From: a bacterium
GTDB lineage: Bacteria > Patescibacteriota > Minisyncoccia > UBA6257 > GWB1-50-10
Assembly (NCBI GenBank): GCA_030647415.1
Contig: JAUSKB010000016.1
Location: 1 to 59,843, forward strand
Length of the DNA: 59,843 nt
Direction of reading: 5' to 3'
Shown here: positions 6,436-57,789 of the stretch, piece after piece
Numbering within the stretch: position 1 is the first letter of the stretch
How the letters are laid out: every line of letters begins with the position of its first letter
The notes under the pieces: generated by a model
Told to the model about the DNA's origin: nothing
What the model saw: the letters and a program-made list of their open reading frames with translations, nothing else
Databases searched by the model: none
Position numbers and translations under genes: made by a program

Positions 6436-6521
6436 ATGTAATAGGTAATAAGTAACTGGTAAGAGGCAATTGAAAATTCAGTTTACGATATCGTTTCCTA
6501 TTACTGGTTACCAATTACTAA

Positions 6522-7223: not shown

Positions 7224-7235
7224 AGCTATTCCTTA

Positions 7236-7269
7236 GGCGAAACCTCTGTGGGTTACCGGAGGTTTCGCC
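7236..7269. repeat. hairpin family B, copy B1 (ggcgaaacctc/gaggtttcgcc)
   Basis: Perfect 11-bp stem ggcgaaacctc...gaggtttcgcc. The same arms recur at 27153, 27400, 50584 and 52892. Confidence 0.85.
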
Positions 7270-7280
7270 TCATGATAAGA

Positions 7281-13986: not shown

Positions 13987-14085
13987 GATACCAATATGCT
14001 AATGGTACGAATGATGCGAATCATACGAATGGAAACGGATTAGTATTATTCGTATCATTCGCATGAATTCGTATATTAGCATCAC
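13987..14085. repeat. spacer-filling palindrome family C (cgaat words), copy C1
   Basis: Arms gataccaatatgctaatggtacgaatgatgcgaatcatacgaatgg / ttagtattattcgtatcattcgcatgaattcgtatattagcatc. It fills the gap between the serS start and the lysS stop. Confidence 0.85.
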
Positions 14086-14086
14086 A

Positions 14087-15529
14087 CTACGCATTCCGCA
14101 TCGGCGGGAAGAAGACCGTCTCGCGGATGGGTTTGTCGGCCATAACGGCGAAGAGCCGCTCGGAAAGCCCGAACCCGGCGGTCGGCGGCATACCGTACTC
14201 CAGGGCCTCGATGAAATCCTCGTCAATGCGTTGTGCCTCCTCGTCCCCCGCCTCGCGGAGCGCCATCTGCTCCTCGAACCGCTTCCGCTGTTCGTCCGGG
14301 TCGTTCAGCTCCGCCCAGCCGTTCCCTACCTCCGTACCTGCCGCGAGCACCTGGAACCGGAGTGCCCGGCCCGGCCGGTCGGGGTCCGCTTTTGCGAGCG
14401 GCGAGATGATGAGCGGGTGGCCGACGAGAAAGCATGGTTCTATAAGCGTCGGTCGGACGGTCTTTTTGTATATCAAATCGATGAGCCGCCCCGTTCCGAG
14501 CGTCGGGTCCACGGGGAGCGCAAGCTTCGCGGCGACCGCGGTAAGCGCCTCGCGGTCCGCAGTCAGGGGGTTGACGCCTGTCGCCGCGGCGAATGCGTCC
14601 ACATAGTCTACCTCACGCCACGTCCCGCCCCACTCGAGGATGACATCGCCGAACGTGGTGACGGTCGAACCCCAGGTCGCCTCGGCCACATGACAATAGA
14701 GGCCGGCGACGAACGCCATCATCTGCTGGTGGTCCCAGTAGGCGGCGTAGCACTCCATCTGCGTGTAGTCCTGTAGATGGTCGCGGTCGATCCCTTCATT
14801 CCGGAAGATGCGCCCGATCTCGAAGACCTTCTCGAACCCTCCCACGAGGAGTTTCTTAAGCGGCAGCTCGAGCGAGATGCGGAGAAAGAAGTCCTGGTCG
14901 AGGGCATTGTGGTGCGTCACGAATGGCGTCGCGTCCGCACCGCCGGGCACTTGCTCGAGCACCGAGGTCTCCACCTCAAGGAACCCCGCATGAACAAGCT
15001 CCTCGCGCATGGCGCGCCAGAACGAACTCTTCTTCCGGAACAGCTCCCGAACACCCGGGTCGGCGATAAGGTCGAGGTACCGCTTCCGGAGCCGGAGTTC
15101 CGTGTCGGAAAGTCCGTACCAGGTCGTCGGCACCGGCCGGAGGCTTTTTGCCGCAATCGTGGCCGCCACCGCCGCGATACTCGGCTCGCCTCGTTTCGTC
15201 GTGAGCGGGTTCCCGGTCACCGAGAGGAAGTCACCAACATCCACCGTCTCCACGAGGTGGGAAAACATTTCCGAGCCCAGCTCATTCGCGTCGAGAATCA
15301 CCTGAAGTTTTCCCGTACCGTCATCAAGGTCCGCGAAGATTATCTTGCCTTGGTCGCGCCAGGAAACGACGCGGCCGGCAACCGACCGCGCGTCATGCTG
15401 CCCGGCGAGGACCGCCGCGCGCGCCGCCGCGAGCGTCTCGGTGCGGGCGACGGTGGCAGGGTACGGATCGGCGCCCGCACGCACTCGTGCGAGCTTTCGA
15501 CGTCGTTCTTCTATGAGCTCGTCAAGCAT
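14087..15529 (-). CDS. lysS: lysyl-tRNA synthetase (class II)
   Basis: OB-fold N-domain (GRVVSWRDQGKIIFADLDDGTGKLQV) and class II core (FRNEGIDRDHLQDYTQMECY; GMPPTAGFGLSERL). Confidence 0.96.
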   Translation of the reverse strand: MLDELIEERRRKLARVRAGADPYPATVARTETLAAARAAVLAGQHDARSVAGRVVSWRDQGKIIFADLDDGTGKLQVILDANELGSEMFSHLVETVDVGDFLSVTGNPLTTKRGEPSIAAVAATIAAKSLRPVPTTWYGLSDTELRLRKRYLDLIADPGVRELFRKKSSFWRAMREELVHAGFLEVETSVLEQVPGGADATPFVTHHNALDQDFFLRISLELPLKKLLVGGFEKVFEIGRIFRNEGIDRDHLQDYTQMECYAAYWDHQQMMAFVAGLYCHVAEATWGSTVTTFGDVILEWGGTWREVDYVDAFAAATGVNPLTADREALTAVAAKLALPVDPTLGTGRLIDLIYKKTVRPTLIEPCFLVGHPLIISPLAKADPDRPGRALRFQVLAAGTEVGNGWAELNDPDEQRKRFEEQMALREAGDEEAQRIDEDFIEALEYGMPPTAGFGLSERLFAVMADKPIRETVFFPPMRNA

Positions 15530-27152: not shown

Positions 27153-27190
27153 CAAGGCGAAACCTCAGAATTCCCCGAGGTTTCGCCTTG
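27153..27190. repeat. hairpin family B, copy B2 (contains the holB stop codon in its loop)
   Basis: caaggcgaaacctc-agaattcccc-gaggtttcgccttg, a 14-bp perfect stem. Confidence 0.88.
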
Positions 27191-28019
27191 GGAGCCGCCC
27201 CAAACGCTCCCGGATTGCCCGCTCCTGAAGCACCGGATTCACATTGAACCGGCGGACCAGCTCGAGCCGTTCCGCAAGCCACGCAAGTCTGCCCGGCTGG
27301 CCCGCCCGACCGGACGACTGCGGTCGTTCGGGCAGGTACCCCCGAAATCCGTTCGCGTGCGCCTCGACGAGCATCCGCTCGATCTCGGCGCCAGGATCTC
27401 GAGGCGAAACCTCGGAATCTCCTAGAGGTTTCGCCTCCGGCTTCGACAGCTCGAGCGCACAACCGATGCTTCCGAACGACCGCGCGGCGATGCGGGAAGC
27501 TGCCGCGGGTGAACAGCTACGATGCTGAAGTAAAAATCGCTCCACATGAGCCGCAGGTAGCCGCGGCACGTACACGACGGAAAGCCGTGAACGGAGCGGC
27601 GGAGTGAGTAGGTCTGCCTGGCTCGTCACGACAAGGAGCAGCGCATGTGGCGGTGGTTCCTCGACAATCTTCAAGAGCGCGCCCTGCGCCTCGGGGGTGA
27701 GCGCCTCGGCACCGTCGATGACCACAGTCCGGCGCGGAGACCGAAACGGCGTCTGCCAGAGGAACCTACGGATGTCACGGATAGCATCGATACCAATCGT
27801 CCTATTTTCTCCTGGTGCGGTCGTTGTGATATCCATGAGCGCTGCCGCACCGAACTCGAAGCTACCACACTCAAGGTACGCGGCAAACGATGCCGCGAAT
27901 GTTGCCTTCCCGATACCGCGGTCGCCGACAAAACAGTAGGCGTGCGTTAGCGTGCCCTCCCGCGAGAGGCGGGCGAATATCGCAGTAAGTTTATCGTACC
28001 CTACTAGAGTGGATGACAT
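27165..28019 (-). CDS. holB: DNA polymerase III delta-prime subunit (clamp-loader AAA+)
   Basis: HAYCFVGDRGIGKATFA P-loop, VVIDGAEALTPEAQGALLKIVEEPP. The C-terminus runs through two B hairpins. Confidence 0.8.
   Translation of the reverse strand: MSSTLVGYDKLTAIFARLSREGTLTHAYCFVGDRGIGKATFAASFAAYLECGSFEFGAAALMDITTTAPGENRTIGIDAIRDIRRFLWQTPFRSPRRTVVIDGAEALTPEAQGALLKIVEEPPPHALLLVVTSQADLLTPPLRSRLSVVYVPRLPAAHVERFLLQHRSCSPAAASRIAARSFGSIGCALELSKPEAKPLGDSEVSPRDPGAEIERMLVEAHANGFRGYLPERPQSSGRAGQPGRLAWLAERLELVRRFNVNPVLQERAIRERLGRLPRRNLGEF
27400..27436. repeat. hairpin family B, copy B3 (in-frame inside holB)
   Basis: gaggcgaaacctc...gaggtttcgcctc; translated as EAKPLGDSEVSPR. Confidence 0.85.
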
Positions 28020-29161: not shown

Positions 29162-29318
29162 GAGTGGAGGAGAGTAATCAGTAATTGGTAAAAGGTAATT
29201 GGAGGCTCAAAACCAACATACGCGAGTTCCTATTACCTATTACTTGCTACTTATTACCTGTTACCAAGTACCTATTTCTATCCACCCCACTTTACCGCCA
29301 TAGCGCCGTTTTCGCAAG

Positions 29319-33791: not shown

Positions 33792-33894
33792 CATTTCCTC
33801 AAACGGTGCAACTTGTCATTCCAGACGGCCGTCTGAAATGACAAGTTATTGCAGGGACGCAATTTAGAAAGTTTTTGGTGTTTCCGCCGTGGGA

Positions 33895-38163: not shown

Positions 38164-38274
38164 TGATACAAATATACTAATGGTACGAATGATACTAATC
38201 ATACGAATGGGAATTCGTTGGTGTTATTAGTATTATTCGTATCATTCGCATGAATTCGTATATTGGTATCGCAC
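38164..38274. repeat. palindrome family C, copy C3
   Basis: gatacaaatatactaatggtacgaatgatactaatcatacgaatggg ... ttagtattattcgtatcattcgcatgaattcgtatattggtatc. It fills the gap between the rpsM start and the rpmJ stop. Confidence 0.88.
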
Positions 38275-38387
38275 TAGCCCTGCCTCTGCTTATGCTTCTT
38301 GTTCACACAAATAACGAAGACACGACCACGGCGTCTGACCGTTTTGCATTTCATGCAGATTTTCTTTACTGATGAGCGTACCTTCAT
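38274..38387 (-). CDS. rpmJ: 50S ribosomal protein L36
   Basis: Not in the ORF track (too short). The minus strand encodes [37 protein letters not shown], canonical L36 in its usual place between infA and rpsM. Confidence 0.9.
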
Positions 38388-38727: not shown

Positions 38728-38898
38728 CCTGAAGCCTCGCACCGAATACGCAATACACAATACACATAGCTAAGTATACAAATGAGGCGGGAGATGTCAA
38801 GCACAACTGCAAGTAATAGGCAAAAGGTAATTGGTACTAGGGGAACCCAGCGCTTTTCTTATTACCTATTACTCATTACCTATTTCTCTCCATGAGCG

Positions 38899-50519: not shown

Positions 50520-50583
50520 ATACAAACACATACTACCACGGCGTCGCCGAATGTAAAAAAGGGTCAGGAGCCTCGGATTCACA

Positions 50584-50618
50584 AGGCGAGACCTTAAAAG
50601 AATCCCAAGGTCTCGCCT
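50584..50618. repeat. hairpin family B, copy B4
   Basis: aggcgagacctt-aaaagaatccc-aaggtctcgcct, downstream of the 50644 stop. Confidence 0.85.
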
Positions 50619-50643
50619 CGGGGAACCGGGTTCCTAATCTTTC

Positions 50644-51522
50644 TTAACGCGCGGTGAAAACCTGCAACCCCAACCCGCCCAACCGCACCTCAATTGTCCC
50701 CCGCTCGTCCGTGCGAAAAATGGCGGCGCCCGCGGCGCGGAGCCGCGCGAGCGTTTCGGACGTCGGGTGGCCGTAGCTATTCTTCCCGACTTCAATGACG
50801 GCGACCGCGGGGCGGAGCGCGCGGAGAAACTCTTCTGATGAGGAAAACTTCGACCCGTGGTGGCCGACTTTCAGAATATCCACGGGACTTACGCCCGCGC
50901 GGACGAGTGTCCGCTCGACCGGCGCCCCAGCGTCGCCGGTGAAGAGGGCGGAAACGCCGCCGCTCTCGACGCGCGCGACGAGCGTCGTATCGTTCAGGTC
51001 ATCCGAGCGAAGCAGGTCTGGCGTCGGCGAAAGTATGCGAACCGTACCGCCGCTCGTCCGAATACGGTCGCCCGCTCCGAGCTCGACCATACGGATGCCA
51101 CGCTCCTCGATGACCCGGATGAGCTCGCGGTACGCATCGGTATCCCGCGACCGCCCCGAAGAGAGGAAGGCGCCGACATCATACTGCCGGAGTACCTCGA
51201 TAAGCCCGCCAAAGTGGTCCTCTTGCGGATGGGTCATGAGCACCAGGTCGATATAGCGGTCGGTCGGGGCGAGCGCGCGTCCCAGTTCCCGGAGCACCGC
51301 GCCGGTCGGCGGCCCGCCGTCAATGAGGAGCTGTACGCCGCCGGCCTGCCCGCCTCCGGCGGGGAATTCCACGAGTTCGCTATCCCCCTGCCCCACGTCG
51401 AGAAAGAGAAATCTCGTTTCGGCGGATGACGCAAGCACTCCCCGCCACACAACGATATCGAGCGCGAGGAGGGCGAGCGCGAGTATGAGGATTTTTTCTT
51501 TATGTTTCTCAAGTATGCGCAT
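50644..51522 (-). CDS. ComEC-type metallo-beta-lactamase domain protein (separate ORF)
   Basis: FLDVGQGDSELVEF, LVLMTHPQEDHFGGL, KVGHHGS. It overlaps the upstream comEC channel ORF by 14 nt. Confidence 0.85.
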   Translation of the reverse strand: MRILEKHKEKILILALALLALDIVVWRGVLASSAETRFLFLDVGQGDSELVEFPAGGGQAGGVQLLIDGGPPTGAVLRELGRALAPTDRYIDLVLMTHPQEDHFGGLIEVLRQYDVGAFLSSGRSRDTDAYRELIRVIEERGIRMVELGAGDRIRTSGGTVRILSPTPDLLRSDDLNDTTLVARVESGGVSALFTGDAGAPVERTLVRAGVSPVDILKVGHHGSKFSSSEEFLRALRPAVAVIEVGKNSYGHPTSETLARLRAAGAAIFRTDERGTIEVRLGGLGLQVFTAR

Positions 51523-53098
51523 TTTTGAGATGGGTTCTCGTCATCCAGACCACGAATCCGATAAGCACGGCATAGTACGCGAACGCGCCAGCCCACGAAA
51601 TGGCGGGGGCGACGGGCACGGAAATCAAGCTGAATAGCCGGATAACGCCCAACTCATACTGCGTGAGCGCCCATGCGACGAGACCGACGACTTGCGCAAG
51701 GAGAATCGACGCGGCACCGACTGCGGCGGTTAAGAACCCCACACCCATTGTAATCGGCACCGCGGCAAGGATGAGCAGGTTCGCCGCGAGCGAGGTCACA
51801 GACACCATCCCAAACTGCGCAATCAAGATGGGTGCAACCGCGAGCTGGGCTGCGGCAGTCGTGGATAGTGTGGTACGCCAGTCGAGGAAACCTTTGTTCC
51901 CCCGGGACGCCGTAAATCGCCGGAGCACGGGCTCAAGGTAGACGATGCCGAGAAGGGCGACGAAGGAGAGCTGGAACCCCACGTCGAACGCGAGCACCTT
52001 CGGGTTCACGAGAACCATCGCGAGGCCGGCGAGGACGACGGCCTGCCGAACGTCGAAGAGTCGTCCAGTCTCCTTCGCGGCGAGGGCGAGTGACCCCATG
52101 ATTGCGGCTCGAACCACCGATGCCTCCGCCCCTGCCATACACACAAACCCGAGTATCACCGCAAGCGTGACGAGGAACGCTGCTCGACGCCGTCGAGATA
52201 TGAGCCAGAGCGCCGCACCCATGACCGCCTCGCCAAGAATGGTGATGTTATACCCGGAGAGCGCGACAAGGTGCGTCGTGCCGGAGCGCTGCATGGAGTT
52301 CTTTAGCTCATCCGAAAACGCACCGCGCTCCCCCACCGTGAGGCCGGAGAGAAACGAGGCGTCCTCCGCCGGCAGGACGCGCGCGAAGACGCCGGTCACC
52401 GCATGCTTCAGGGAGAAGAGCGCGGACTGAATCGGCGAGCCCTGCCCACGCGCGACGACGGTAACCGTCGGCCGGTTCATCACGCCCGACACACGCTCCT
52501 TCGCAAGGTACCGGGCGTACCCCTCGGGCTCCGGTTGCTTCACGACGCCGGCGAGTGAAACCTCGTCCCCGTACCGGACCGCCGGGTACGGCGGGAGGTT
52601 CGCGATGACCCGCCCGACCGGACGCCAGCCCGACAAAGCCGTTCTGGCGGGGTCGTTCGGGCGGGCCCGCCCTGCTGCGGCTCCGTGAGCTGGCGGATCG
52701 AGCCGGATGAATGCTGAACGGTACCCATCCCGAAGCACCGGATCATTCACCACAACGCCGCGCAACGTCTGGGTTCCCAGTGACACCGCAGAGGCACGGA
52801 ATCGCATGTCGTCGAAGTGGTAGTACACCGACCCCGCGATGATGAGCGGCGCGAGCGCCGCAAGCACAAAGCACCGGCGTCGCATCGCGCCCCAAGGCGA
52901 GACCTCAAGAATCCCCGAGGTCTCGCCTTGGGGCGCGAGTACTGAAATGAAACGTGGCGCAAAGAATCCAACAATAAGCAACACCGCGGCGAGCGCGGCG
53001 ACTATAAGAAGCACCTGATAGGTCAACCCAAGACTCGCGAGGAGGACCCCGAGGAGGAATGTGAGCGCTCCGTAGAACAGCACGCTCGGTGCAGGCAC
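51509..53098 (-). CDS. comEC: DNA internalisation competence protein ComEC/Rec2, channel part
   Basis: N-terminal OB/DUF4131-like region and a polytopic competence domain (...SGTTHLVALSGYNITIL...). It contains in-frame hairpin B5. Confidence 0.85.
   Translation of the reverse strand: MPAPSVLFYGALTFLLGVLLASLGLTYQVLLIVAALAAVLLIVGFFAPRFISVLAPQGETSGILEVSPWGAMRRRCFVLAALAPLIIAGSVYYHFDDMRFRASAVSLGTQTLRGVVVNDPVLRDGYRSAFIRLDPPAHGAAAGRARPNDPARTALSGWRPVGRVIANLPPYPAVRYGDEVSLAGVVKQPEPEGYARYLAKERVSGVMNRPTVTVVARGQGSPIQSALFSLKHAVTGVFARVLPAEDASFLSGLTVGERGAFSDELKNSMQRSGTTHLVALSGYNITILGEAVMGAALWLISRRRRAAFLVTLAVILGFVCMAGAEASVVRAAIMGSLALAAKETGRLFDVRQAVVLAGLAMVLVNPKVLAFDVGFQLSFVALLGIVYLEPVLRRFTASRGNKGFLDWRTTLSTTAAAQLAVAPILIAQFGMVSVTSLAANLLILAAVPITMGVGFLTAAVGAASILLAQVVGLVAWALTQYELGVIRLFSLISVPVAPAISWAGAFAYYAVLIGFVVWMTRTHLKNAHT
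52892..52931. repeat. hairpin family B, copy B5 (in-frame inside comEC)
   Basis: ccaaggcgagacctc-aagaatcccc-gaggtctcgccttgg, a 15-bp perfect stem translated as QGETSGILEVSPW. Confidence 0.88.
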
Positions 53099-53547: not shown

Positions 53548-53886
53548 TTATTGCGACGAAAAGGCGCGTGCCGCGAGGGCGAACTGGTCAAAGTACTTCT
53601 GGATTCCCGCGAGCGAGCTCCCGTACAAGCGTCCCCCGTACACGGCATCGCAGAACACCTCGCGCGCACGGGCAATCTCCCACCGCCTTCCCGCCCACCG
53701 AGGGTCCGCGAGCGTCAAGTCAAAGAGATCGAGCGCGCGGTCGACGGCGCCACGGAAACGCGCCTCGTCCCGCTCCTGCCACCGGGCGGCGCGGGAAACC
53801 TCGCTGCCGATATTCCCCAGTTGGGATTTGAGCGAGAGCGCATACCACGCGCCGCCCGCGAGTTCAGCGTGTAACGGGCGCATCAT
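53548..53886 (-). CDS. hypothetical helical protein, downstream partner of a 2-gene module
   Basis: 112 aa. The start overlaps the upstream stop (ATGA at 53883-53886). No family was recognised. Confidence 0.5.
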   Translation of the reverse strand: MMRPLHAELAGGAWYALSLKSQLGNIGSEVSRAARWQERDEARFRGAVDRALDLFDLTLADPRWAGRRWEIARAREVFCDAVYGGRLYGSSLAGIQKYFDQFALAARAFSSQ

Positions 53887-54230
53887 GAAAGAATGAGTCG
53901 CTCGATGACCGCGAGAATCTTCCCGCGAATTTCAGCGTTCTCAACACCTCGGGACCGGTTACCGAGCGAGGGCTTCAAGTTAATCATGGAATCGAACTCA
54001 ACCCAATCCTCCTCCTGCTGGGGATACAGGTTTATTCCCCAGGTGTCTTCCCGCACCGACCCCGCCTCCTCGGTCAGCAACACCTCTTCGTCCGCGTGGA
54101 GCTCGCCGCCGACTGCCATGATGCCCTGCCGCACGTCTACGACCACTTTCACCACATCACCGAACTCTTCGGAGGCAATTTCTGCAAGCTCCGATCGTGT
54201 GATGGGTGTTCGAATGATTCGAATGGCCAT
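53883..54230 (-). CDS. small conserved protein (recalls the DUF5674-type sequence pattern)
   Basis: MAIRIIRTPITRSELAEIA...GGELHADEE...TWGINLYP...FDSMINLKPSLGNRSRGVENAEIR. The family assignment is from memory and needs an HMM check. Confidence 0.5.
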   Translation of the reverse strand: MAIRIIRTPITRSELAEIASEEFGDVVKVVVDVRQGIMAVGGELHADEEVLLTEEAGSVREDTWGINLYPQQEEDWVEFDSMINLKPSLGNRSRGVENAEIRGKILAVIERLILS

Positions 54231-54409
54231 TGCGATACAAGTGTAGCTTGAATCTACTCATATCGCCACCGCGCTGGGTACCGCTACACAATCACCCCCC
54301 TACCGTCGCTCGTATTCACTCGCTCCCACAACACCCCCGGTTTTGTGTCCGCTTCACTCATTCCAACTCGGTCCGACCTAGGTCGAACCGATCCCCTTTA
54401 GCGGCGTGG

Positions 54410-55783
54410 TCATGTGATAATGCCCCCGCCGAGCATTTCCCCGTCCTCGGAATACCAGACCGCGGACTGGCCGGGGGCGATGAATTTGACAGGAGCAGTA
54501 AAAAGTAAGCAGTAATTGTCCCGACTTTGTCGTGGACTCACGACTCTGTCGGAGGTAATAGGTAATGAACTCCCAGTTACCTCTTGCGTATTACTTATTA
54601 CCAGCTCTCCCCTCACCAACGGCTGCCGGTACCGCACCCGGGCGAGGACGGACATGCTAACATTCTGCAGAATGTTAGCATGTTGCAGCGTGTCATTGCC
54701 ATCGCTTGGCAAATCCGTCATTCTAACATTCTTAAGAATGTTAGAATGACTTCCGTTGATAAAATTTACATTTGCAAGCGTCACCTCCGTGCGGAAGAGC
54801 GCGGGATTGTCAGTGCCCTCGGCGACCATGACGACATTCTTCTCCACATCGATTGCCGAGATGTAGTATGGCGGCGTTTCTGCGTTTCCTTTTTCTTTTG
54901 TCTTTTTTCCTAAGTTGAGCCCATGCCGCTGCCCGATGGTGTACAGATGCGTGCCGCGGTGCTCCCCTACTTTAGTACCATTAGTCGCAATGACGTCCCC
55001 CGGACGGTCAGGGATGTGCCTCGCGACGAAGTCGGCGAGCGCGACGTCGCCCAGGAAGCAGATGCCCTGCGAGTCTTTTTTGTCTGCCGTAGGCAGACCA
55101 GCTTTCCGCGCGATGTCCCGTACTTCGGATTTCAGGAGGTCGCCGACAGGGAAGAGCGCGTGCGCGAGCTGTTTCTGCGTGAGCGTCCACAGGAAATAGC
55201 TCTGATCTTTGTTCTTATCCTTCGCCTCAAATAACGAAAAAGAGGGTGCGGCACCGCGCTTTTGTGAGGGGTAAGACTTGGGCGTCGCCCCGGAGACACC
55301 CCGAACGGAAGCGCGGTGCCGCACCCGTGCATAATGCCCCGTCGCCACATACTCCGCCCCGAGCGAGAGCGCCTTTTCCATGAACAGCCCGAACTTTATT
55401 TCGCGATTACAGACCACGTCCGGATTCGGCGTGATGCCGCGCCGGTACCCGTCAATGAGGTACTCCACCACACGCTGCCGGTACTCCTCCTCGAAGTCGA
55501 ACACGTAGAACGGGATGCCGAGGTGGTTCGCGACGCGCCGCGCGTCCTCCGCGTCTTTTTCCGATGGGCACTCGCCAGCCACGCCGAGCTCGTCAAGCCG
55601 CGCCTGGCTCCAGCACTTTAAGTACACCCCCGTCACGTCGTAGCCCCTAAACCCCTCCGGGGTCGGGCGACCAAACAATTTTTCGAAATTGTTTGGTGTA
55701 GCCCGCTTGAGCAACAACGCCGCAACGGAGCTATCTACCCCGCCCGACATACCTACGAACACTTTTTGTCGTTTGATTGACAT
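54410..55783 (-). CDS. mnmA: tRNA 2-thiouridine(34) synthase MnmA, about 95 aa longer than usual
   Basis: PP-loop VFVGMSGGVDSSVAALLL, DKNKDQSYFLW, and the C-terminal FIAPGQSAVWY. The extra length maps to palindromic DNA inserts. Confidence 0.9.
   Translation of the reverse strand: MSIKRQKVFVGMSGGVDSSVAALLLKRATPNNFEKLFGRPTPEGFRGYDVTGVYLKCWSQARLDELGVAGECPSEKDAEDARRVANHLGIPFYVFDFEEEYRQRVVEYLIDGYRRGITPNPDVVCNREIKFGLFMEKALSLGAEYVATGHYARVRHRASVRGVSGATPKSYPSQKRGAAPSFSLFEAKDKNKDQSYFLWTLTQKQLAHALFPVGDLLKSEVRDIARKAGLPTADKKDSQGICFLGDVALADFVARHIPDRPGDVIATNGTKVGEHRGTHLYTIGQRHGLNLGKKTKEKGNAETPPYYISAIDVEKNVVMVAEGTDNPALFRTEVTLANVNFINGSHSNILKNVRMTDLPSDGNDTLQHANILQNVSMSVLARVRYRQPLVRGELVISNTQEVTGSSLPITSDRVVSPRQSRDNYCLLFTAPVKFIAPGQSAVWYSEDGEMLGGGIIT
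54497..54602. repeat. word-type (taat/ggta) palindromic insert inside mnmA
   Basis: agtaaaaagtaagcagtaattg ... ggtaataggtaatgaactcccagttacctcttgcgtattacttattacc. The same vocabulary occurs in intergenic spacers at 6437-6522, 29172-29272 and 38810-38886. Confidence 0.7.
54654..54749. repeat. two perfect AT-rich palindromes inside mnmA (28 bp and 32 bp)
   Basis: atgctaacattctgcagaatgttagcat (54654-54681) and tcattctaacattcttaagaatgttagaatga (54718-54749). The 96-bp block equals 32 codons. Confidence 0.9.
55243..55325. repeat. GC-rich inverted-repeat insert inside mnmA
   Basis: Perfect 18-bp arms gggtgcggcaccgcgctt / aagcgcggtgccgcaccc, separated by 47 nt. Confidence 0.85.
55670..55697. repeat. 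12-bp-stem hairpin insert inside mnmA
   Basis: accaaacaattt-ttcg-aaattgtttggt; translated as TPNNFEKLFG between the PP-loop and the next conserved block. Confidence 0.8.
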
Positions 55784-55832
55784 GATGTATGTTTAGTAGT
55801 AATACGATACTAGGTTCATTTCACAACCACAA

Positions 55833-56222
55833 ATGGAGATTTTTATGAGAAACCATGGCTTTACCCTGGCCGCTGTACTGGGCTTCGTCCTGCTTGTCGT
55901 CACGCTCGTCTGGAGGATCGTAGGAACAGGCCCATCGCCAGTCGAGATCTTTGCGGGCGCCATCGTCAGCCCCACGCTGATCTGCATCGGTCTCGCGGGT
56001 GGCGGCATCGTGCCGACCCCCAGAGTGCGGACATGGATGTTCATTATGCTCATGGTGGCAGGTCTGGGTATCATTGGGCTGGCGACGGCGGTAAGGGTCG
56101 GGTATCCCGCCGGGATGCACGAGCGGGAGATTGCTGACCTTCTGGCACTACTCGGCGCGAGCTTTATAATCACCGCATTGACGACCGTGGCGGTCGCAAA
56201 AACGCCCGCCCAAAAACAGTGA
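55833..56222 (+). CDS. small four-helix membrane protein (hypothetical)
   Basis: 129 aa with four hydrophobic helices. Preferred over the overlapping minus-strand ORF 55793..56413. Confidence 0.45.
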   Translation: MEIFMRNHGFTLAAVLGFVLLVVTLVWRIVGTGPSPVEIFAGAIVSPTLICIGLAGGGIVPTPRVRTWMFIMLMVAGLGIIGLATAVRVGYPAGMHEREIADLLALLGASFIITALTTVAVAKTPAQKQ

Positions 56223-56306: not shown

Positions 56307-56348
56307 CGAATATACCATAATCGACGGCCGTCGATTATGGTATATTCG
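56307..56348. repeat. 42-bp perfect palindrome between convergent genes
   Basis: cgaatataccataatcgacgg|ccgtcgattatggtatattcg. Confidence 0.9.
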
Positions 56349-56433: not shown

Positions 56434-57789
56434 CTACGGGCGGGCGCGGAGCAGGTCGAAGACGCGGTACGCCTCCCCTGCCCCCATCGTGATGACCACA
56501 TCCTTCGGACGGAGCGAACGGCGAAGTTCGCTAGCGATTTTTTTGAAACTTCCAACGTACGAAGCATCGGTCTGTACAGCCATTGCAACGGCAAGGTCAC
56601 GCGCATGCACTGTGCCGTCGTCCCGCTCCCGTGCCGCGTAGATATCTGCGAGGAGCACGTGGTCGGCATCGTTGAAGGCGGTCGCGAACTCACTCATGAG
56701 GAGTTTCGTCCGTGAGTAGAGGTGGGGCTGGAAAACGACCCAGATGCGCCGACGGGAACCAAAGTGTTCCCGCGCGGCCTTGAGCGCCGCGCGAATCTCC
56801 GTCGGGTGATGGGAGTAGTCGTCGTAGAAGCGGACGCTGTTCCAAGTTCCCTTGTACTCGAACCGGCGACCGACACCACGAAATGAACGAAGCGACTTTC
56901 GGATTATGGTGTCCGGGATGCCGAGAAATTTCCCGACCGCATACGCCGCCTGCGCGTTCCGGATATTGTGGTCGCCAATAACATTTAAATCTTTCAATCT
57001 TGGTGACTTTGAATAGTCCACGACCTTCGACCCGCGGATGACTTCGCGAATGTGCGGCGCCTTCGGGTCACAAATTACCGCCCCATTTCTCCCGAGTTTC
57101 GCCACAAACTCACGGAAGGCGCGTTTGATGTTCCCGATGTTCTTGTAGTAATCGAGGTGGTCGTTGTCGATGTTGGTGATGACAATGACGCTCGGGTGGA
57201 TATCGAGGAAGGACTTTTTGTACTCGCACGCCTCAGCGACGAGGTAAGGCCCTGTACCGCCAATAAAATTAGTCGCCATCCCGTTAGAAGCCACCCTGCC
57301 CGCAACACGGCTACGGCTGCCACGGGGCGGCCTGCTTCTAACGGGACTCATCATGCCGCCGACGATGACGGTGGGATCGAGTTTCGCATCTCGCAGGAGC
57401 TTCCCTACCATCGCCGTCGTGGTCGTCTTCCCGTGCGCACCTGCAACCGCGATGGTGAACTTCTCGCGCGAAATGATGCCGAGCATCTCGGCGTAAGAAA
57501 GACATGGGATTCTCTTTTGGCGTGCGGCAACAAGCTCGGGATTCGTGTCCGACACCGCCTTCGTGTACACCACCAAGTCCGGCTTCCCAATATCGGACAT
57601 CCGATGTCCGACATGGACGCGGATTCCCTCGCGGATGAGCGCGTCTGTTATGGACGACCGACCGGAGTCCGACCCGGTCACCCGCTTCCCCATGCGTGCG
57701 AGCATCCGTGCGATGGCGGATACCCCCACGCCACCAATGCCGACGCAGTGCACGCTTCGGACCTCCTCAAGTTTTATCCGCTTTAGCAT
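56434..57789 (-). CDS. murC: UDP-N-acetylmuramate--L-alanine ligase with an in-frame palindromic insert
   Basis: VHCVGIGGVGVSAIARMLARMGKRVTGSD, GAHGKTTTT, EACEYKKSF, DDYSHHPTE. The insert is ...SPVRSRPPRGSRSRVAGRVASNG.... Confidence 0.93.
   Translation of the reverse strand: MLKRIKLEEVRSVHCVGIGGVGVSAIARMLARMGKRVTGSDSGRSSITDALIREGIRVHVGHRMSDIGKPDLVVYTKAVSDTNPELVAARQKRIPCLSYAEMLGIISREKFTIAVAGAHGKTTTTAMVGKLLRDAKLDPTVIVGGMMSPVRSRPPRGSRSRVAGRVASNGMATNFIGGTGPYLVAEACEYKKSFLDIHPSVIVITNIDNDHLDYYKNIGNIKRAFREFVAKLGRNGAVICDPKAPHIREVIRGSKVVDYSKSPRLKDLNVIGDHNIRNAQAAYAVGKFLGIPDTIIRKSLRSFRGVGRRFEYKGTWNSVRFYDDYSHHPTEIRAALKAAREHFGSRRRIWVVFQPHLYSRTKLLMSEFATAFNDADHVLLADIYAARERDDGTVHARDLAVAMAVQTDASYVGSFKKIASELRRSLRPKDVVITMGAGEAYRVFDLLRARP
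57279..57346. repeat. F4-type arms flanking a GC-rich centre, inside murC
   Basis: Perfect 13-bp arms tcccgttagaagc / gcttctaacggga (compare the F4 copy 2 arm tcatcccgttagaaattta). Confidence 0.85.

What the first reader, a model, noticed from the sequence alone, without database searches (positions are those of the whole stretch)
54654..54749. Two perfect AT-rich palindromes (28 and 32 bp) translated inside mnmA
The palindromes are atgctaacattctg|cagaatgttagcat and tcattctaacattctt|aagaatgttagaatga. They lie 36 bp apart in a 96-bp block, which is exactly 32 codons.

The block reads HSNILKNVRMTDLPSDGNDTLQHANILQNVSM. It sits between LANVNFING and VLARVRYRQ, where MnmA homologues are contiguous as far as I recall.

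Because the DNA is palindromic, both strands encode the same NIL(K/Q)NV peptides. The block is strongly AT-rich within a GC-rich gene.
Basis: partly seen in the sequence, partly recalled or inferred. Interest (0 to 1): 0.8.

Follow-up and report, generated by a model that had tools for sequence, protein, structure and literature searches.

The report
Dispersed regulator-site palindromes translated inside mnmA
The two palindromes are real, in-frame copies of a 30-bp palindromic repeat found across many ultra-small (Patescibacteria) bacterial genomes, where it normally flanks a tiny DNA-binding regulator gene, and here it sits, translated, in a tolerant surface loop of the tRNA-modifying enzyme MnmA.

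Summary
Two perfect palindromes (32 bp at 54652-54683, 34 bp at 54717-54750) lie in frame in a 457-aa mnmA gene on the minus strand.

They are not an MnmA feature. They are two copies of a dispersed palindrome, CATTCTAACATTCT-NN-AGAATGTTAGAATG. It occurs in at least 119 stretches of species-representative genomes, mostly Patescibacteria and mostly intergenic.

In about 30% of loci it flanks an 88-99 aa ArsR/SmtB-fold winged-helix gene on both sides. The upstream copy supplies a -35-like TTGGAA, and a -10-like hexamer follows 17-18 bp later. I infer that it is this protein's operator.

Variants keep perfect symmetry, the arms extend with variable sequence, and the central dinucleotide is genome-specific.

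About 10% of copies lie in ORFs, and the seven clear in-gene cases all use the HSNILQNVRM frame. More than half of 120 Patescibacteria MnmA proteins carry some palindrome family at this same loop. ComEC has a similar hot-spot loop.

The structure model keeps the MnmA core intact and gives the inserts low confidence.

The closest analogues are Rickettsia palindromic elements, REP elements and ArsR 12-2-12 operators. It is a member of none of them. How the copies spread is unknown. Interest is moderate to high.

The parts
54410..55783 (-). The mnmA gene (tRNA 2-thiouridine synthase, 457 aa) that hosts the palindromes.
   Evidence: ORF. Pfam PF03054, PF20259 and PF20258. PDB MnmA matches at E 1e-73. 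Residues that are invariant across 22 homologues, including the SGGVDS P-loop, C125 and C242, are all present. AlphaFold2 pTM is 0.79.
54717..54750 (.). Palindrome copy with a TA centre, the first copy in gene sense. It is 34 bp and perfect. Its inner 30 bp (54719-54748) match the family consensus CATTCTAACATTCTTAAGAATGTTAGAATG at 30 of 30 positions. It encodes H346-M355, HSNILKNVRM.
   Evidence: (I16). Residues 344-351 are modelled as a short helix.
54684..54716 (-). Spacer of 33 bp between the two palindromes. Together with the outermost palindrome bases it encodes T356-Q367, TDLPSDGNDTLQ. It is probably the native loop of this MnmA lineage.
   Evidence: It resembles the loop of relative P0005 (GMLPSESRQ). 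It has no significant similarity to the winged-helix gene modules: score 18 against a shuffle mean of 18.9. pLDDT is 45-54.
54652..54683 (.). Palindrome copy with a GC centre, the second copy in gene sense. It is 32 bp and perfect. Its 30-mer (54653-54682), CATGCTAACATTCTGCAGAATGTTAGCATG, differs from the consensus by one symmetric change (T to G, mirrored A to C). It encodes H368-M377, HANILQNVSM.
   Evidence: (I17).
54640..54762 (-). The whole block with short flanks. As a single strand it folds into two 15-bp hairpins closed by a 5-bp ACGGA/TCCGT stem.
   Evidence: RNA folding energy -52.4 kcal/mol, z -8.6. DNA folding energy -34.4 kcal/mol, z -9.8.

Best explanation
**What it is.** The 96-bp block is two separately acquired copies of a dispersed 30-bp palindromic repeat. 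The consensus is CATTCTAACATTCT-NN-AGAATGTTAGAATG, which is four ATTC/GAAT-containing octamers arranged 14-2-14. The two copies lie on either side of the native loop residues of MnmA.

**Home context (shown).** In Patescibacteria, and in MAGs labelled as several other phyla, the usual setting of this palindrome is a compact site-gene-site module. One copy sits about 30-45 bp upstream of an 88-99 aa ArsR/SmtB-fold winged-helix gene. A second copy overlaps that gene's TAA stop codon.

**Role of the palindrome (inferred).** I infer that the palindrome is the operator bound by dimers of this protein. The upstream copy overlaps the -35 element of the gene's own promoter, which would give autorepression.

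**Dispersed copies (shown).** Extra copies are scattered through genomes in the manner of REP elements or Rickettsia palindromic elements. Most are intergenic. About one in ten is inside a gene.

**Why in-gene copies survive (inferred).** They persist only where the stop-free frame, HSNILQNVRM, falls in a tolerant surface loop. The linker before the C-terminal beta-barrel of MnmA is such a loop and is colonised again and again by different palindrome families. The mnmA copies are therefore translated passengers, modelled as a low-confidence loop. MnmA does not need them.

**Why the symmetry stays perfect (inferred).** Perfect dyad symmetry, symmetric variants and outward growth of the arms are what intrastrand template switching (quasipalindrome correction) would produce. 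Binding by a symmetric dimer may reinforce this.

**Unknown.** The means of dispersal is not known. I found no transposase and no target-site duplication.
For: **Repeat family.**
- Arms almost never occur alone: 258 of 270 arm occurrences are inside exact palindromes.

**Partner gene.**
- The winged-helix gene is the only recurrent neighbour: 32 loci at a median distance of 8 bp. No transposase recurs.
- About 30 loci have palindrome pairs 310-355 bp apart flanking the gene. The upstream copy is a CCAAC/GTTGG variant, and the downstream CTAAC copy contains the stop codon.
- The upstream arm gives TTGGAA, and a -10-like hexamer follows at a spacer of 17-18 bp in 11 of 15 modules.
- The protein scores above the Pfam HTH_5 (arsR family) cut-off for 4 of the 5 proteins scanned; the fifth scored 21.4 bits against a cut-off of 22.
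- NCBIfam ArsR/SmtB is the best family.
- The model (pLDDT 88.8) is closest to SmtB, HlyU, CadC and CzrA, but also to MarR-type regulators (MepR, BpsR) and the centromere-binding protein AspA.
- The recognition helix NFKTISQHT is invariant across 29 members.
- Paralogous winged-helix genes are flanked by different palindromes that share the ATTC-N4-GAAT core.

**Symmetry.**
- 30 of 34 variants with two mismatches, and 11 of 15 with four, are still perfect palindromes.
- The orthologous MnmA copies in L120-L123 show four different symmetric states.
- Arms extend at least 4 bp beyond the 30-mer in 33 copies, against 0.43 expected.
- Template switching is known to homogenise inverted-repeat arms (PMC7202029, PMC8794818, PMC8604942).

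**In-gene copies.**
- They occur in TruB-like, GlcD-like, YchF, triosephosphate isomerase, a GT-like membrane protein and another membrane protein. With MnmA these are the seven clear cases, and all use frame 0.
- About 24 of 120 MnmA homologues have this family at the loop, about 27 have the ATTCGCGCGAAT family, and others have further families. The distribution on the tree is patchy: 51 Fitch steps.
- ComEC has an analogous hot-spot loop.

**Tolerance.** The AlphaFold2 core is confident, and low pLDDT falls on the inserts.

**Independence of the two window copies.** Their centres differ, TA against GC. Within a genome, centres normally agree: 179 of 201 pairs.
Against: - Binding of the winged-helix protein to the palindrome is inferred from adjacency, promoter overlap and covariation between protein subfamily and site. 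It was not measured.
- No winged-helix homologue is present in the 60-kb window. Whether this genome has the partner is therefore unknown.
- Symmetric changes away from the consensus would weaken, not restore, binding by a dimer. The symmetry itself therefore needs a second explanation.
- The frequency of palindromes at the MnmA loop (over 50% of homologues) is far above what random insertion into about 1000 genes would give. That could mean a position-specific function.
- In YchF and in single-copy MnmA the palindrome replaces native residues with no net change in length. That fits simple insertion poorly.
- No target-site duplication, transposase, phage or plasmid vehicle was found.
Confidence: 0.55

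Rival explanations
1. The palindromes are a selected intragenic regulatory device at this particular position in mnmA. They could be a roadblock-type binding site for the winged-helix protein, or an mRNA or DNA hairpin that pauses translation at the domain boundary or tunes expression of mnmA or downstream genes such as comEC. On this view each lineage keeps a palindrome that matches its own regulator.
For: - More than half of 120 Patescibacteria MnmA proteins have an ATTC-N4-GAAT-type or other palindrome at exactly this loop.
- The consensus copy is 30 of 30 perfect in a 56-60% GC genome.
- The RNA fold is very stable, -52.4 kcal/mol with z -8.6.
- The gene order mnmA-comEC recurs in L121, L122, L123, L125 and the window.
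Against: - The closest relatives lack the element.
- Many lineages hold decayed copies, for example L124, L127 and L128.
- L124 has a B-type winged-helix module nearby but a decayed A-type copy in mnmA.
- Unrelated GC-rich elements occupy the same loop in P0004, P0014 and P0026.
- A second gene, comEC, shows the same hot-spot behaviour with unrelated hairpins.
- No promoter-like arrangement lies around the window copies.
- The downstream gene differs in L124, L126 and L128.
Confidence: 0.2
2. The palindrome is not a transcriptional operator. It is instead a site for DNA organisation or recombination. One version is an AspA/TubR-like centromere or nucleoid-organising site, on which the small winged-helix protein nucleates and spreads. 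Another is a symmetric core site used by a recombinase encoded elsewhere to move cassettes, in the way of Xer/dif modules or integron attC sites.
For: - The winged-helix model superposes best on the pNOB8 centromere-binding protein AspA: rmsd 0.8-0.9 over 66-67 columns, TM 0.77-0.78.
- The gene is bracketed by two sites, like a cassette.
- The central dinucleotide is shared by the two sites of a module and by all copies in a genome, as an overlap region would be.
- In the Phycisphaerae MAG WFQY01 the palindrome joins three kinds of conserved flank in different combinations.
- Winged-helix genes often sit on very short contigs.
Against: - No ParA, ParB or recombinase gene recurs next to the palindromes.
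- The sites are fully symmetric, so they carry no directionality.
- The upstream copy has a canonical -35/-10 relationship to the gene, which an operator explains directly.
- The fold similarity to AspA is shared with all ArsR-type proteins.
Confidence: 0.12
3. The inserted peptide is a functional, protein-level addition to MnmA, for example an extra tRNA-binding or partner-binding loop. On this view the DNA palindromy is incidental.
For: The frame is preserved, and the HSNILQNVRM-type peptide recurs in about 20% of the homologues examined. Residues 344-351 are modelled as a short helix.
Against: - The same DNA element is mostly intergenic.
- It encodes the same peptide in unrelated proteins.
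- Codon changes are mirrored in both arms, which is a DNA-level constraint.
- Unrelated peptides fill the loop in other lineages.
- Solved MnmA structures and the closest relatives lack the segment.
- pLDDT is low, 45-54.
Confidence: 0.03
4. The block is an assembly or amplification artefact, such as a hairpin chimera.
For: Perfect palindromes can arise from library artefacts. The doublet arrangement was not found anywhere else. The window's MnmA protein cluster has a single member on a single contig.
Against: - Both flanks are collinear mnmA, and the frame is kept over 96 bp.
- The same element sits in frame at the orthologous site in independent JGI, NCBI and ENA assemblies.
- It occurs in at least 119 further genome stretches.
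- The two copies differ at four positions, so they are not a simple fold-back duplication.
Confidence: 0.02

Closest known systems
Rickettsia palindromic elements (RPEs)
   Same: Both are palindromic repeats in several families. They are inserted in frame into unrelated housekeeping genes, translated, and judged compatible with the host protein's fold (PMC10969869). Here copies sit in MnmA, YchF, TruB-like, triosephosphate isomerase and GlcD-like proteins, always in the stop-free frame and in loops.
   Different: RPEs are about 150 bp and specific to Rickettsia, with no associated DNA-binding gene reported. Here the unit is a perfect 30-bp palindrome found across Patescibacteria and in MAGs labelled as several other phyla. 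It is mostly intergenic, and it brackets a winged-helix gene.
REP / REPIN elements with their RAYT transposase
   Same: Both are 20-40 bp palindromes dispersed mainly between genes, often at gene ends. In both, a small gene is flanked on both sides by the repeats. Copies are homogeneous within a genome.
   Different: The flanked gene here is an 88-99 aa ArsR-fold winged-helix protein, not a Y1/HUH transposase. The palindrome lacks the GTAG or CGTC head typical of REPs (PMC3733652). About 10% of copies are intragenic and translated.
ArsR/SmtB-family 12-2-12 operators
   Same: Both are N-2-N inverted repeats that overlap the promoter of an arsR/smtB-type gene and are bound by dimers for autoregulation (PMC8790569). 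Here the layout is 14-2-14, the upstream arm provides the -35 element, and a -10 element follows at 17-18 bp.
   Different: The symmetry here is perfect rather than imperfect. A second copy overlaps the gene's stop codon. Many extra copies are scattered genome-wide, including in coding sequence. No effector-binding or metal-binding site was evaluated, and binding was not shown.
[quoted passage not shown]
   Same: In both, coding DNA with dyad symmetry gives the same peptide from both strands, and the distribution suggests horizontal spread (PMC2996958).
   Different: PARCELs are 25-residue units in long tandem arrays within surface proteins of unknown function. Here 10-residue units occur singly, or twice in this window, in loops of housekeeping enzymes.
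Short protein-binding sequences tolerated inside genes (DNA uptake sequences; parS and AspA-type centromeres)
   Same: These are conserved short DNA sites found both between and within genes, and they are accommodated in particular reading frames (my own knowledge). The AspA fold is similar to the winged-helix model.
   Different: The arms here never occur singly, and the density is low: 2 copies in 60 kb. No partition genes lie adjacent.

Membership tests
MnmA (tRNA 2-thiouridine synthase), host gene | HUP/PP-loop domain, PRC-barrel and C-terminal beta-barrel, with the SGGVDS P-loop and the two catalytic cysteines. | tested here: met
   Pfam PF03054 (249 bits), PF20259 and PF20258. PDB MnmA matches at E 1e-73. 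S13-S19, C125 and C242 are invariant in the alignment.
Rickettsia palindromic elements | A palindromic repeat inserted in frame in unrelated protein-coding genes and translated. | tested here: met
Rickettsia palindromic elements | Elements of about 150 bp belonging to the ten RPE families of Rickettsia (PMC10969869). | tested here: not met
   The units are 30 bp, the block is 96 bp, and the hosts are Patescibacteria and MAGs labelled as other phyla. Sequence comparison with RPE consensus sequences was not run because none was on hand.
REP/REPIN-RAYT | Short (20-40 bp) palindromes in many dispersed, mostly extragenic copies. | tested here: met
   At least 119 stretches carry it. 15 of 129 copies lie inside ORFs and the rest are intergenic.
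REP/REPIN-RAYT | A GTAG or CGTC tetranucleotide at one end of the palindrome (PMC3733652). | tested here: not met
   The conserved ends are CATT...AATG, and neither GTAG nor CGTC is present.
REP/REPIN-RAYT | A RAYT (IS200/IS605-like Y1 transposase) gene flanked by the repeats. | tested here: not met
   The flanked gene is an 88-99 aa winged-helix protein. No transposase recurs among the neighbours.
MITE | Terminal inverted repeats plus a target-site duplication, with a related autonomous insertion sequence. | tested here: not met
   No direct repeat flanks either window copy. No related insertion sequence or transposase was found. The internally-deleted-module idea failed.
ArsR/SmtB operator | An N-2-N inverted repeat (classically 12-2-12). 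| tested here: met
   The palindrome has 14-2-14 architecture with a variable central dinucleotide.
ArsR/SmtB operator | The site overlaps the promoter of an arsR/smtB-type gene. | tested here: met
   The upstream copy ends 27-47 bp before the ATG. TTGGAA is followed by a -10-like hexamer at a spacer of 17-18 bp in 11 of 15 modules.
ArsR/SmtB operator | The partner protein belongs to the ArsR/SmtB winged-helix family. | tested here: inconclusive
   Pfam HTH_5 scores are above the cut-off for 4 of 5 proteins. NCBIfam NF033788 is the best family but scores 37-50 bits against a cut-off of 55. The fold is closest to SmtB, HlyU, CadC and CzrA, but also to MarR-type regulators and AspA.
ArsR/SmtB operator | The protein binds the site, and an effector releases it. 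| not testable with these tools
   This needs EMSA, DAP-seq or ChIP.
DNA uptake sequence (DUS/USS) | A short motif present singly and at high density, in one preferred orientation per strand. | tested here: not met
   258 of 270 arm occurrences are inside full palindromes. The 60-kb window has only 2 copies.
AspA-type centromere-binding system | A small winged-helix protein with a palindromic site upstream of its gene, in an operon with parB and parA. | tested here: not met
   The fold similarity is present, and so is the upstream palindrome. No ParA or ParB gene recurs next to the modules.

The most novel reading that the evidence does not exclude
The 30-bp palindrome and its roughly 89-aa ArsR-fold partner may form a previously undescribed system that is most common in Patescibacteria and also appears in MAGs labelled as other phyla. 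It would be either a self-propagating repressor-operator element or an AspA-like DNA-organising system.

On this reading its sites are actively planted, or positively selected, at fixed loops of housekeeping genes. The mnmA copies would then be functional intragenic binding sites rather than passengers. The MnmA and ComEC hot-spot loops would be conserved docking points whose sequence co-evolves with each lineage's winged-helix paralogue.
Probability: 0.25. Interest if true: 0.8.

Novelty: new variant of a known kind. Interest (0 to 1): 0.62.

Why it matters
- **A candidate regulatory system.** It points to what may be one of the few widely conserved pairs of DNA-binding protein and site in Patescibacteria. 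The family has at least 2191 protein clusters at 75-85% identity across candidate phyla, and its site is conserved to the base. No function has been assigned, and I found no description in the searchable literature.
- **Protein evolution.** It gives a second, independent case beside Rickettsia of palindromic repeats remodelling housekeeping proteins in reduced genomes. Here there are clear hot-spot loops and visible symmetric evolution of the coding sequence.
- **Practical use.** Such palindromes appear to break assemblies: many winged-helix genes sit on contigs of 0.5-2 kb, and several palindromes lie at contig ends. They also inflate gene calls (P0215). They account for much of the length variation, 363-574 aa, among Patescibacteria MnmA proteins.

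Tried and rejected
1. **Block as an internally deleted winged-helix module.** I tested whether the 96-bp block is a MITE-like remnant of the site-gene-site module. The spacer shows no similarity to 30 modules: score 18 against a shuffle mean of 18.9.
2. **Doublet as a recurrent unit.** A metagenome scan for AGAATGTTAG-N30-60-CTAACATTCT gave 52 hits, but none is a pair of full palindromes.
3. **Phage or plasmid vehicle.** There were 0 hits in 2.9 million viral contigs for both the CTAAC and CCAAC variants. BLAST found nothing in phage or plasmid collections.
4. **Known RNA family.** Only sub-threshold matches to generic miRNA-precursor hairpin models turned up near the block. Nothing reached gathering score anywhere in the window.
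5. **Promoter at the mnmA copies.** No sigma-70-like site was found in 53800-55900.
6. **Uptake-sequence model.** The arms never occur alone.
7. **Transposase or partition gene next to the palindromes.** None recurs.
8. **Partner gene in the window.** There is no winged-helix homologue.
10. **Simple vertical inheritance of one ancestral MnmA palindrome.** The distribution on the tree is patchy, with 51 Fitch steps on 118 tips. The tree is a rough neighbour-joining tree, so this test is weak.
11. **Terminator role.** Only 47 of 129 copies have a run of four T or four A next to them. Copies are only mildly depleted from head-to-head intergenic regions.
Full report
**1. The observation**

The sequence at 54652-54750 holds two perfect palindromes:
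- 54652-54683: ACATGCTAACATTCTG|CAGAATGTTAGCATGT, 32 bp.
- 54717-54750: GTCATTCTAACATTCTT|AAGAATGTTAGAATGAC, 34 bp.

They share the core CTAACATTCT-NN-AGAATGTTAG. This core occurs twice in the window and never in 100 shuffles. The 10-nt arm occurs nowhere else in the window.

Both palindromes lie in a 457-aa ORF on the minus strand, 54410-55783. Pfam and PDB identify it as MnmA.

The codon-aligned block is 54653-54748, covering H346-M377. That is 96 bp and reads HSNILKNVRM-TDLPSDGNDTLQ-HANILQNVSM. That includes the same peptides on the other strand and the low GC, 0.40 against 0.56.

Against solved MnmA structures, the stretch between residue 342 and residue 424 is 82 aa, where the structures have 33.

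**2. The host and its relatives**

The best MnmA homologues are all Patescibacteria (Candidate Phyla Radiation): Jorgensen-, Lipton- and Wolfebacteria and Paceibacteria. They are 47-63% identical (one partial match at 48% over 61% of the query) and 363-574 aa long.

The three closest relatives, P0002, P0003 and P0005, lack the block. More distant ones, P0097, P0099, P0009 and P0008, carry one HSNILQNVRM-like unit at exactly this position. P0032 has a decayed one.

Their DNA confirms this. All copies are in the same frame:

| Locus | 30-mer at the orthologous site | State |
|---|---|---|
| L120 | CATTCTAACATTCTGCAGAATGTTAGAATG | consensus |
| L121 | CATTCTcACATTCTGCAGAATGTgAGAATG | symmetric change, still perfect |
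| L122 | CATTCcgACATTCTGCAGAATGTcgGAATG | symmetric change, still perfect |
| L123 | CATTCTAAtgTTCTTAAGAAcaTTAGAATG | symmetric change, still perfect |
| L124 | CATCCTTACATACTGGAGAATGTGAGAATG | decayed |

These independent assemblies make an artefact unlikely.

**3. A widespread repeat**

Most are Patescibacteria, including MAGs labelled Saccharibacteria. Several copies also occur in MAGs labelled Phycisphaerae, Gammaproteobacteria and Rickettsiales.

The full consensus is CATT-CTAACATTCT-NN-AGAATGTTAG-AATG. The centre is GC, TA, AT or TG/CA.

Arms almost never occur alone: 258 of 270 are inside exact palindromes.

Most copies are intergenic, and 15 of 129 lie inside ORFs of at least 80 aa.

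I found no copy in 2.9 million viral contigs and none in the phage or plasmid collections. No Rfam family matches. The searchable literature does not contain the sequence.

**4. The partner gene**

The only gene that recurs next to the palindrome is an 88-99 aa winged-helix gene. It appears in 32 loci at a median distance of 8 bp.

About 30 loci have the layout palindrome, gene, palindrome, with the two sites 310-355 bp apart.
- The downstream CTAAC copy contains the gene's TAA stop codon (...PYGKxFxKFMKTF*).
- The upstream copy is usually the symmetric variant CATTCcAAC...GTTgGAATG.

That upstream variant turns the right arm into TTGGAA. A -10-like hexamer follows at a spacer of 17-18 bp in 11 of 15 modules, and the ATG comes 27-47 bp after the palindrome. 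The upstream copy therefore overlaps the gene's own -35 element. This is the classic geometry of an autoregulated repressor.

Evidence on the protein family:
- Pfam HTH_5 (arsR family) is above its cut-off for 4 of the 5 proteins scanned.
- NCBIfam ArsR/SmtB is the best family, though below its cut-off.
- The model has pLDDT 88.8 and the topology alpha1 to alpha4, a beta wing, then alpha5.
- Its best structural matches are SmtB, HlyU, CadC and CzrA. MarR-type proteins also match, and the centromere-binding protein AspA gives the lowest rmsd.

The family is large and very conserved: at least 2191 clusters, at 75-85% identity across candidate phyla. The recognition helix is invariant.

Paralogous winged-helix genes carry different palindromes in the same two positions:
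- L124: CATACTTTCTTATTCGCGCGAATAAGAAAGTATG.
- L073: GAACAATTC-CATA-GAATTGTTC.

All share the ATTC-N4-GAAT core. Protein subfamily and site therefore vary together.

This N-2-N layout at the promoter of an arsR-like gene matches the known 12-2-12 operators of the family (PMC8790569). Binding itself is inferred, not shown.

**5. How the palindromes evolve**

Three patterns stand out.
- Variants stay symmetric. 30 of 34 copies with two mismatches to the consensus, and 11 of 15 with four, are still perfect palindromes.
- The arms continue with non-conserved but complementary sequence. They extend at least 4 bp beyond the 30-mer in 33 copies against 0.43 expected, and at least 6 bp in 14 copies against 0.03 expected.
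- The central dinucleotide is specific to each genome. 179 of 201 within-genome pairs are identical. The per-genome mean is 0.76, against a permutation mean of 0.32.

Mirrored changes that move away from the consensus are not what selection for dimer binding predicts. They are what intrastrand template switching at quasipalindromes produces (PMC7202029, PMC8794818, PMC8604942). Homogeneity within a genome points to amplification or gene conversion inside each genome.

I found no transposase, no target-site duplication and no vehicle. The way the copies spread is unknown.

**6. Copies inside genes**

In-frame copies occur in a TruB-like protein, a GlcD-like oxidase, YchF, triosephosphate isomerase and two membrane proteins (one GT-like). 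All use the frame HSNILQNVRM. None uses the other open frame, ILTFCRMLE. Seven independent genes all using one of the two open frames has a probability of about 0.008 by chance. This argues that the copies are translated and then filtered at the protein level.

In YchF the unit replaces native residues with no net change in length.

A survey of the 120 best MnmA homologues at this loop gives:

| Content of the loop before RVRYRQ | Approximate number of 120 |
|---|---|
| This family (HSNILQNVRM-like) | 24 |
| ATTCGCGCGAAT family ((H/P/Y)SLIRANRRI-like) | 27 |
| IIHNSKFIIP-like | 8 |
| FANSIELANEG-like | 6 |
| GC-rich SGATPKSYPSQ | 3 |
| SNVFAKAKTWASPRRQPE | 3 |

For the second family, L126 has CTTTCTTATTCGCGCGAATAAGAAAG, which is the core of the L124 winged-helix palindrome.

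States are patchy on a rough neighbour-joining tree: 51 Fitch steps on 118 tips, against a permuted mean of 62. Copies range from perfect to decayed.

ComEC behaves the same way. Its N-terminal loop holds a GC-rich hairpin in the window and an unrelated AT-rich palindrome in the relative L125.

The window itself has further dispersed inverted-repeat families with in-gene copies:
- The GGTAATAGGTAAT family, with one copy in mnmA at 54554-54602.
- The AAGGCGAGACCTC hairpin family, with one copy in comEC.
- GC-rich inverted repeats in mnmA at 55244-55326 and in murC at 57279-57346.

The picture is a high flux of palindromic repeats, retained only in a few tolerant loops.

**7. The window's block**

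The two copies differ in centre, TA against GC, and at one mirrored position. This is unusual within a genome.

The spacer resembles the native loop of relatives: LPSDGNDTLQ against LPSESRQ in P0005. It is not related to the winged-helix module.

The best reading is two separate acquisitions, one on each side of the native loop.

The AlphaFold2 model keeps a confident MnmA core, with pTM 0.79. Low confidence falls on the inserted segments: 160-176, 294-301, 355-357 with 363-373, and 401-420 (a three-residue dip at 239-241 is the only low-confidence stretch not on an insert). The conserved P-loop and cysteines are intact.

No promoter-like arrangement surrounds the copies. No winged-helix gene lies in the 60-kb window.

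As RNA or single-stranded DNA the block would form two 15-bp hairpins.

**8. Verdict**

The finding is real, and it belongs to a larger pattern. Its kind is known: palindromic repeats translated inside genes, as in Rickettsia (PMC10969869), and REP-like dispersal. It fails the defining tests for RPE, REP/RAYT and MITE membership.

Its link to a small ArsR-fold gene bracketed by its own sites appears undescribed.

Two rivals remain open:
- A selected, position-specific regulatory role at the MnmA loop.
- A DNA-organising or recombination role for the site.

Noticed in passing
window 55244-55326 (inside mnmA, residues about 153-180): A GC-rich inverted repeat (29-nt arms, 86% complementary) is translated as RGVSGATPKSYPSQKRGAAP. 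The same peptide occurs at this site in P0003, P0014 and P0016. It also occurs at the other (C-terminal) loop in P0004, P0014 and P0026, so it is a second mobile in-frame element. pLDDT is below 50 for residues 160-176.
   Followed up: partly
window 54536-54610 (inside mnmA, residues about 392-416); also 6437-6470, 29187-29265, 38819-38887, 45710, 57908: An AT-rich inverted-repeat family is built on GGTAATAGGTAAT, with 16 matches against 0.3 expected. One copy is translated inside mnmA (ISNTQEVTGSSLPITSD), next to a SPRQSRD motif that also appears in P0043.
   Followed up: partly
window 52885-52938 (inside comEC, 51509-53098); also 7234-7271, 27154-27189, 27401-27437, 50583-50619: This is a hairpin family, AAGGCGAGACCTC-N10-GAGGTCTCGCCTT, with five copies. 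The perfect 22-nt-arm copy is translated in an N-terminal loop of ComEC. The orthologous loop of the relative L125 instead holds an AT-rich palindrome, CATTCGTACATTCTATAGAATATACGAATG.
   Followed up: partly
window 57279-57346 (inside murC, 56434-57789): A GC-rich inverted repeat (24-nt arms, 79% complementary) is translated as SPVRSRPPRGSRSRVAGRVASNG inside the MurC ligase.
   Followed up: no
window 14010-14090 and 38190-38275: Two copies of an AT-rich dispersed repeat of about 75 bp, rich in ACGAAT/ATTCGT. Both contain ATTCGCATGAAT. The window has 5 ATTC-N4-GAAT sites against about 1 expected.
   Followed up: no
window 56307-56348 and 33810-33847: Two long palindromes (42 bp perfect, 38 bp at 96%) share the centre GACGGCCGTC. 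The second contains GCCGTCTGAA, which is identical to the 10-mer that, from memory, is the Neisseria DNA uptake sequence. This is probably coincidence.
   Followed up: no
L012, L021, L034, L036, L072, L083, L094, L118 (Phycisphaerae MAG WFQY01): The same palindrome, with a TA centre in all 11 copies, lies in long intergenic regions. It joins three kinds of conserved flanking segment in different combinations (X-Y, X-Z, Z-Y). This could reflect recombination at the palindrome or modular repeats.
   Followed up: partly
L124 1264-1297 and 1590-1601; L073 262-283 and 601-622: Paralogous winged-helix genes of about 90 aa are bracketed by their own, different palindromes: CATACTTTCTTATTCGCGCGAATAAGAAAGTATG in L124 and GAACAATTC-CATA-GAATTGTTC in L073. 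All share the ATTC-N4-GAAT core.
   Followed up: partly
proteins P0121-P0240; loci L010, L022, L024/L055: Many winged-helix genes sit on contigs of only 0.5-2 kb, and several palindromes lie at contig ends, so the palindromes seem to break assemblies. Some gene calls run through the upstream palindrome, for example P0215, which starts MKQHSNILQNVGM.
   Followed up: no
whole window: No Rfam family reaches gathering score anywhere in the 59.8 kb, not even a tRNA.
   Followed up: no
L129-L180 (metagenome contigs): Other elements have AGAATGTTAGAA...TTCTAACATTCT as distant inverted arms separated by 30-60 bp. Recurrent spacings are 57 and 72 bp, and some come from human-gut assemblies. These are a different arrangement of the same octamer motif.
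   Followed up: no
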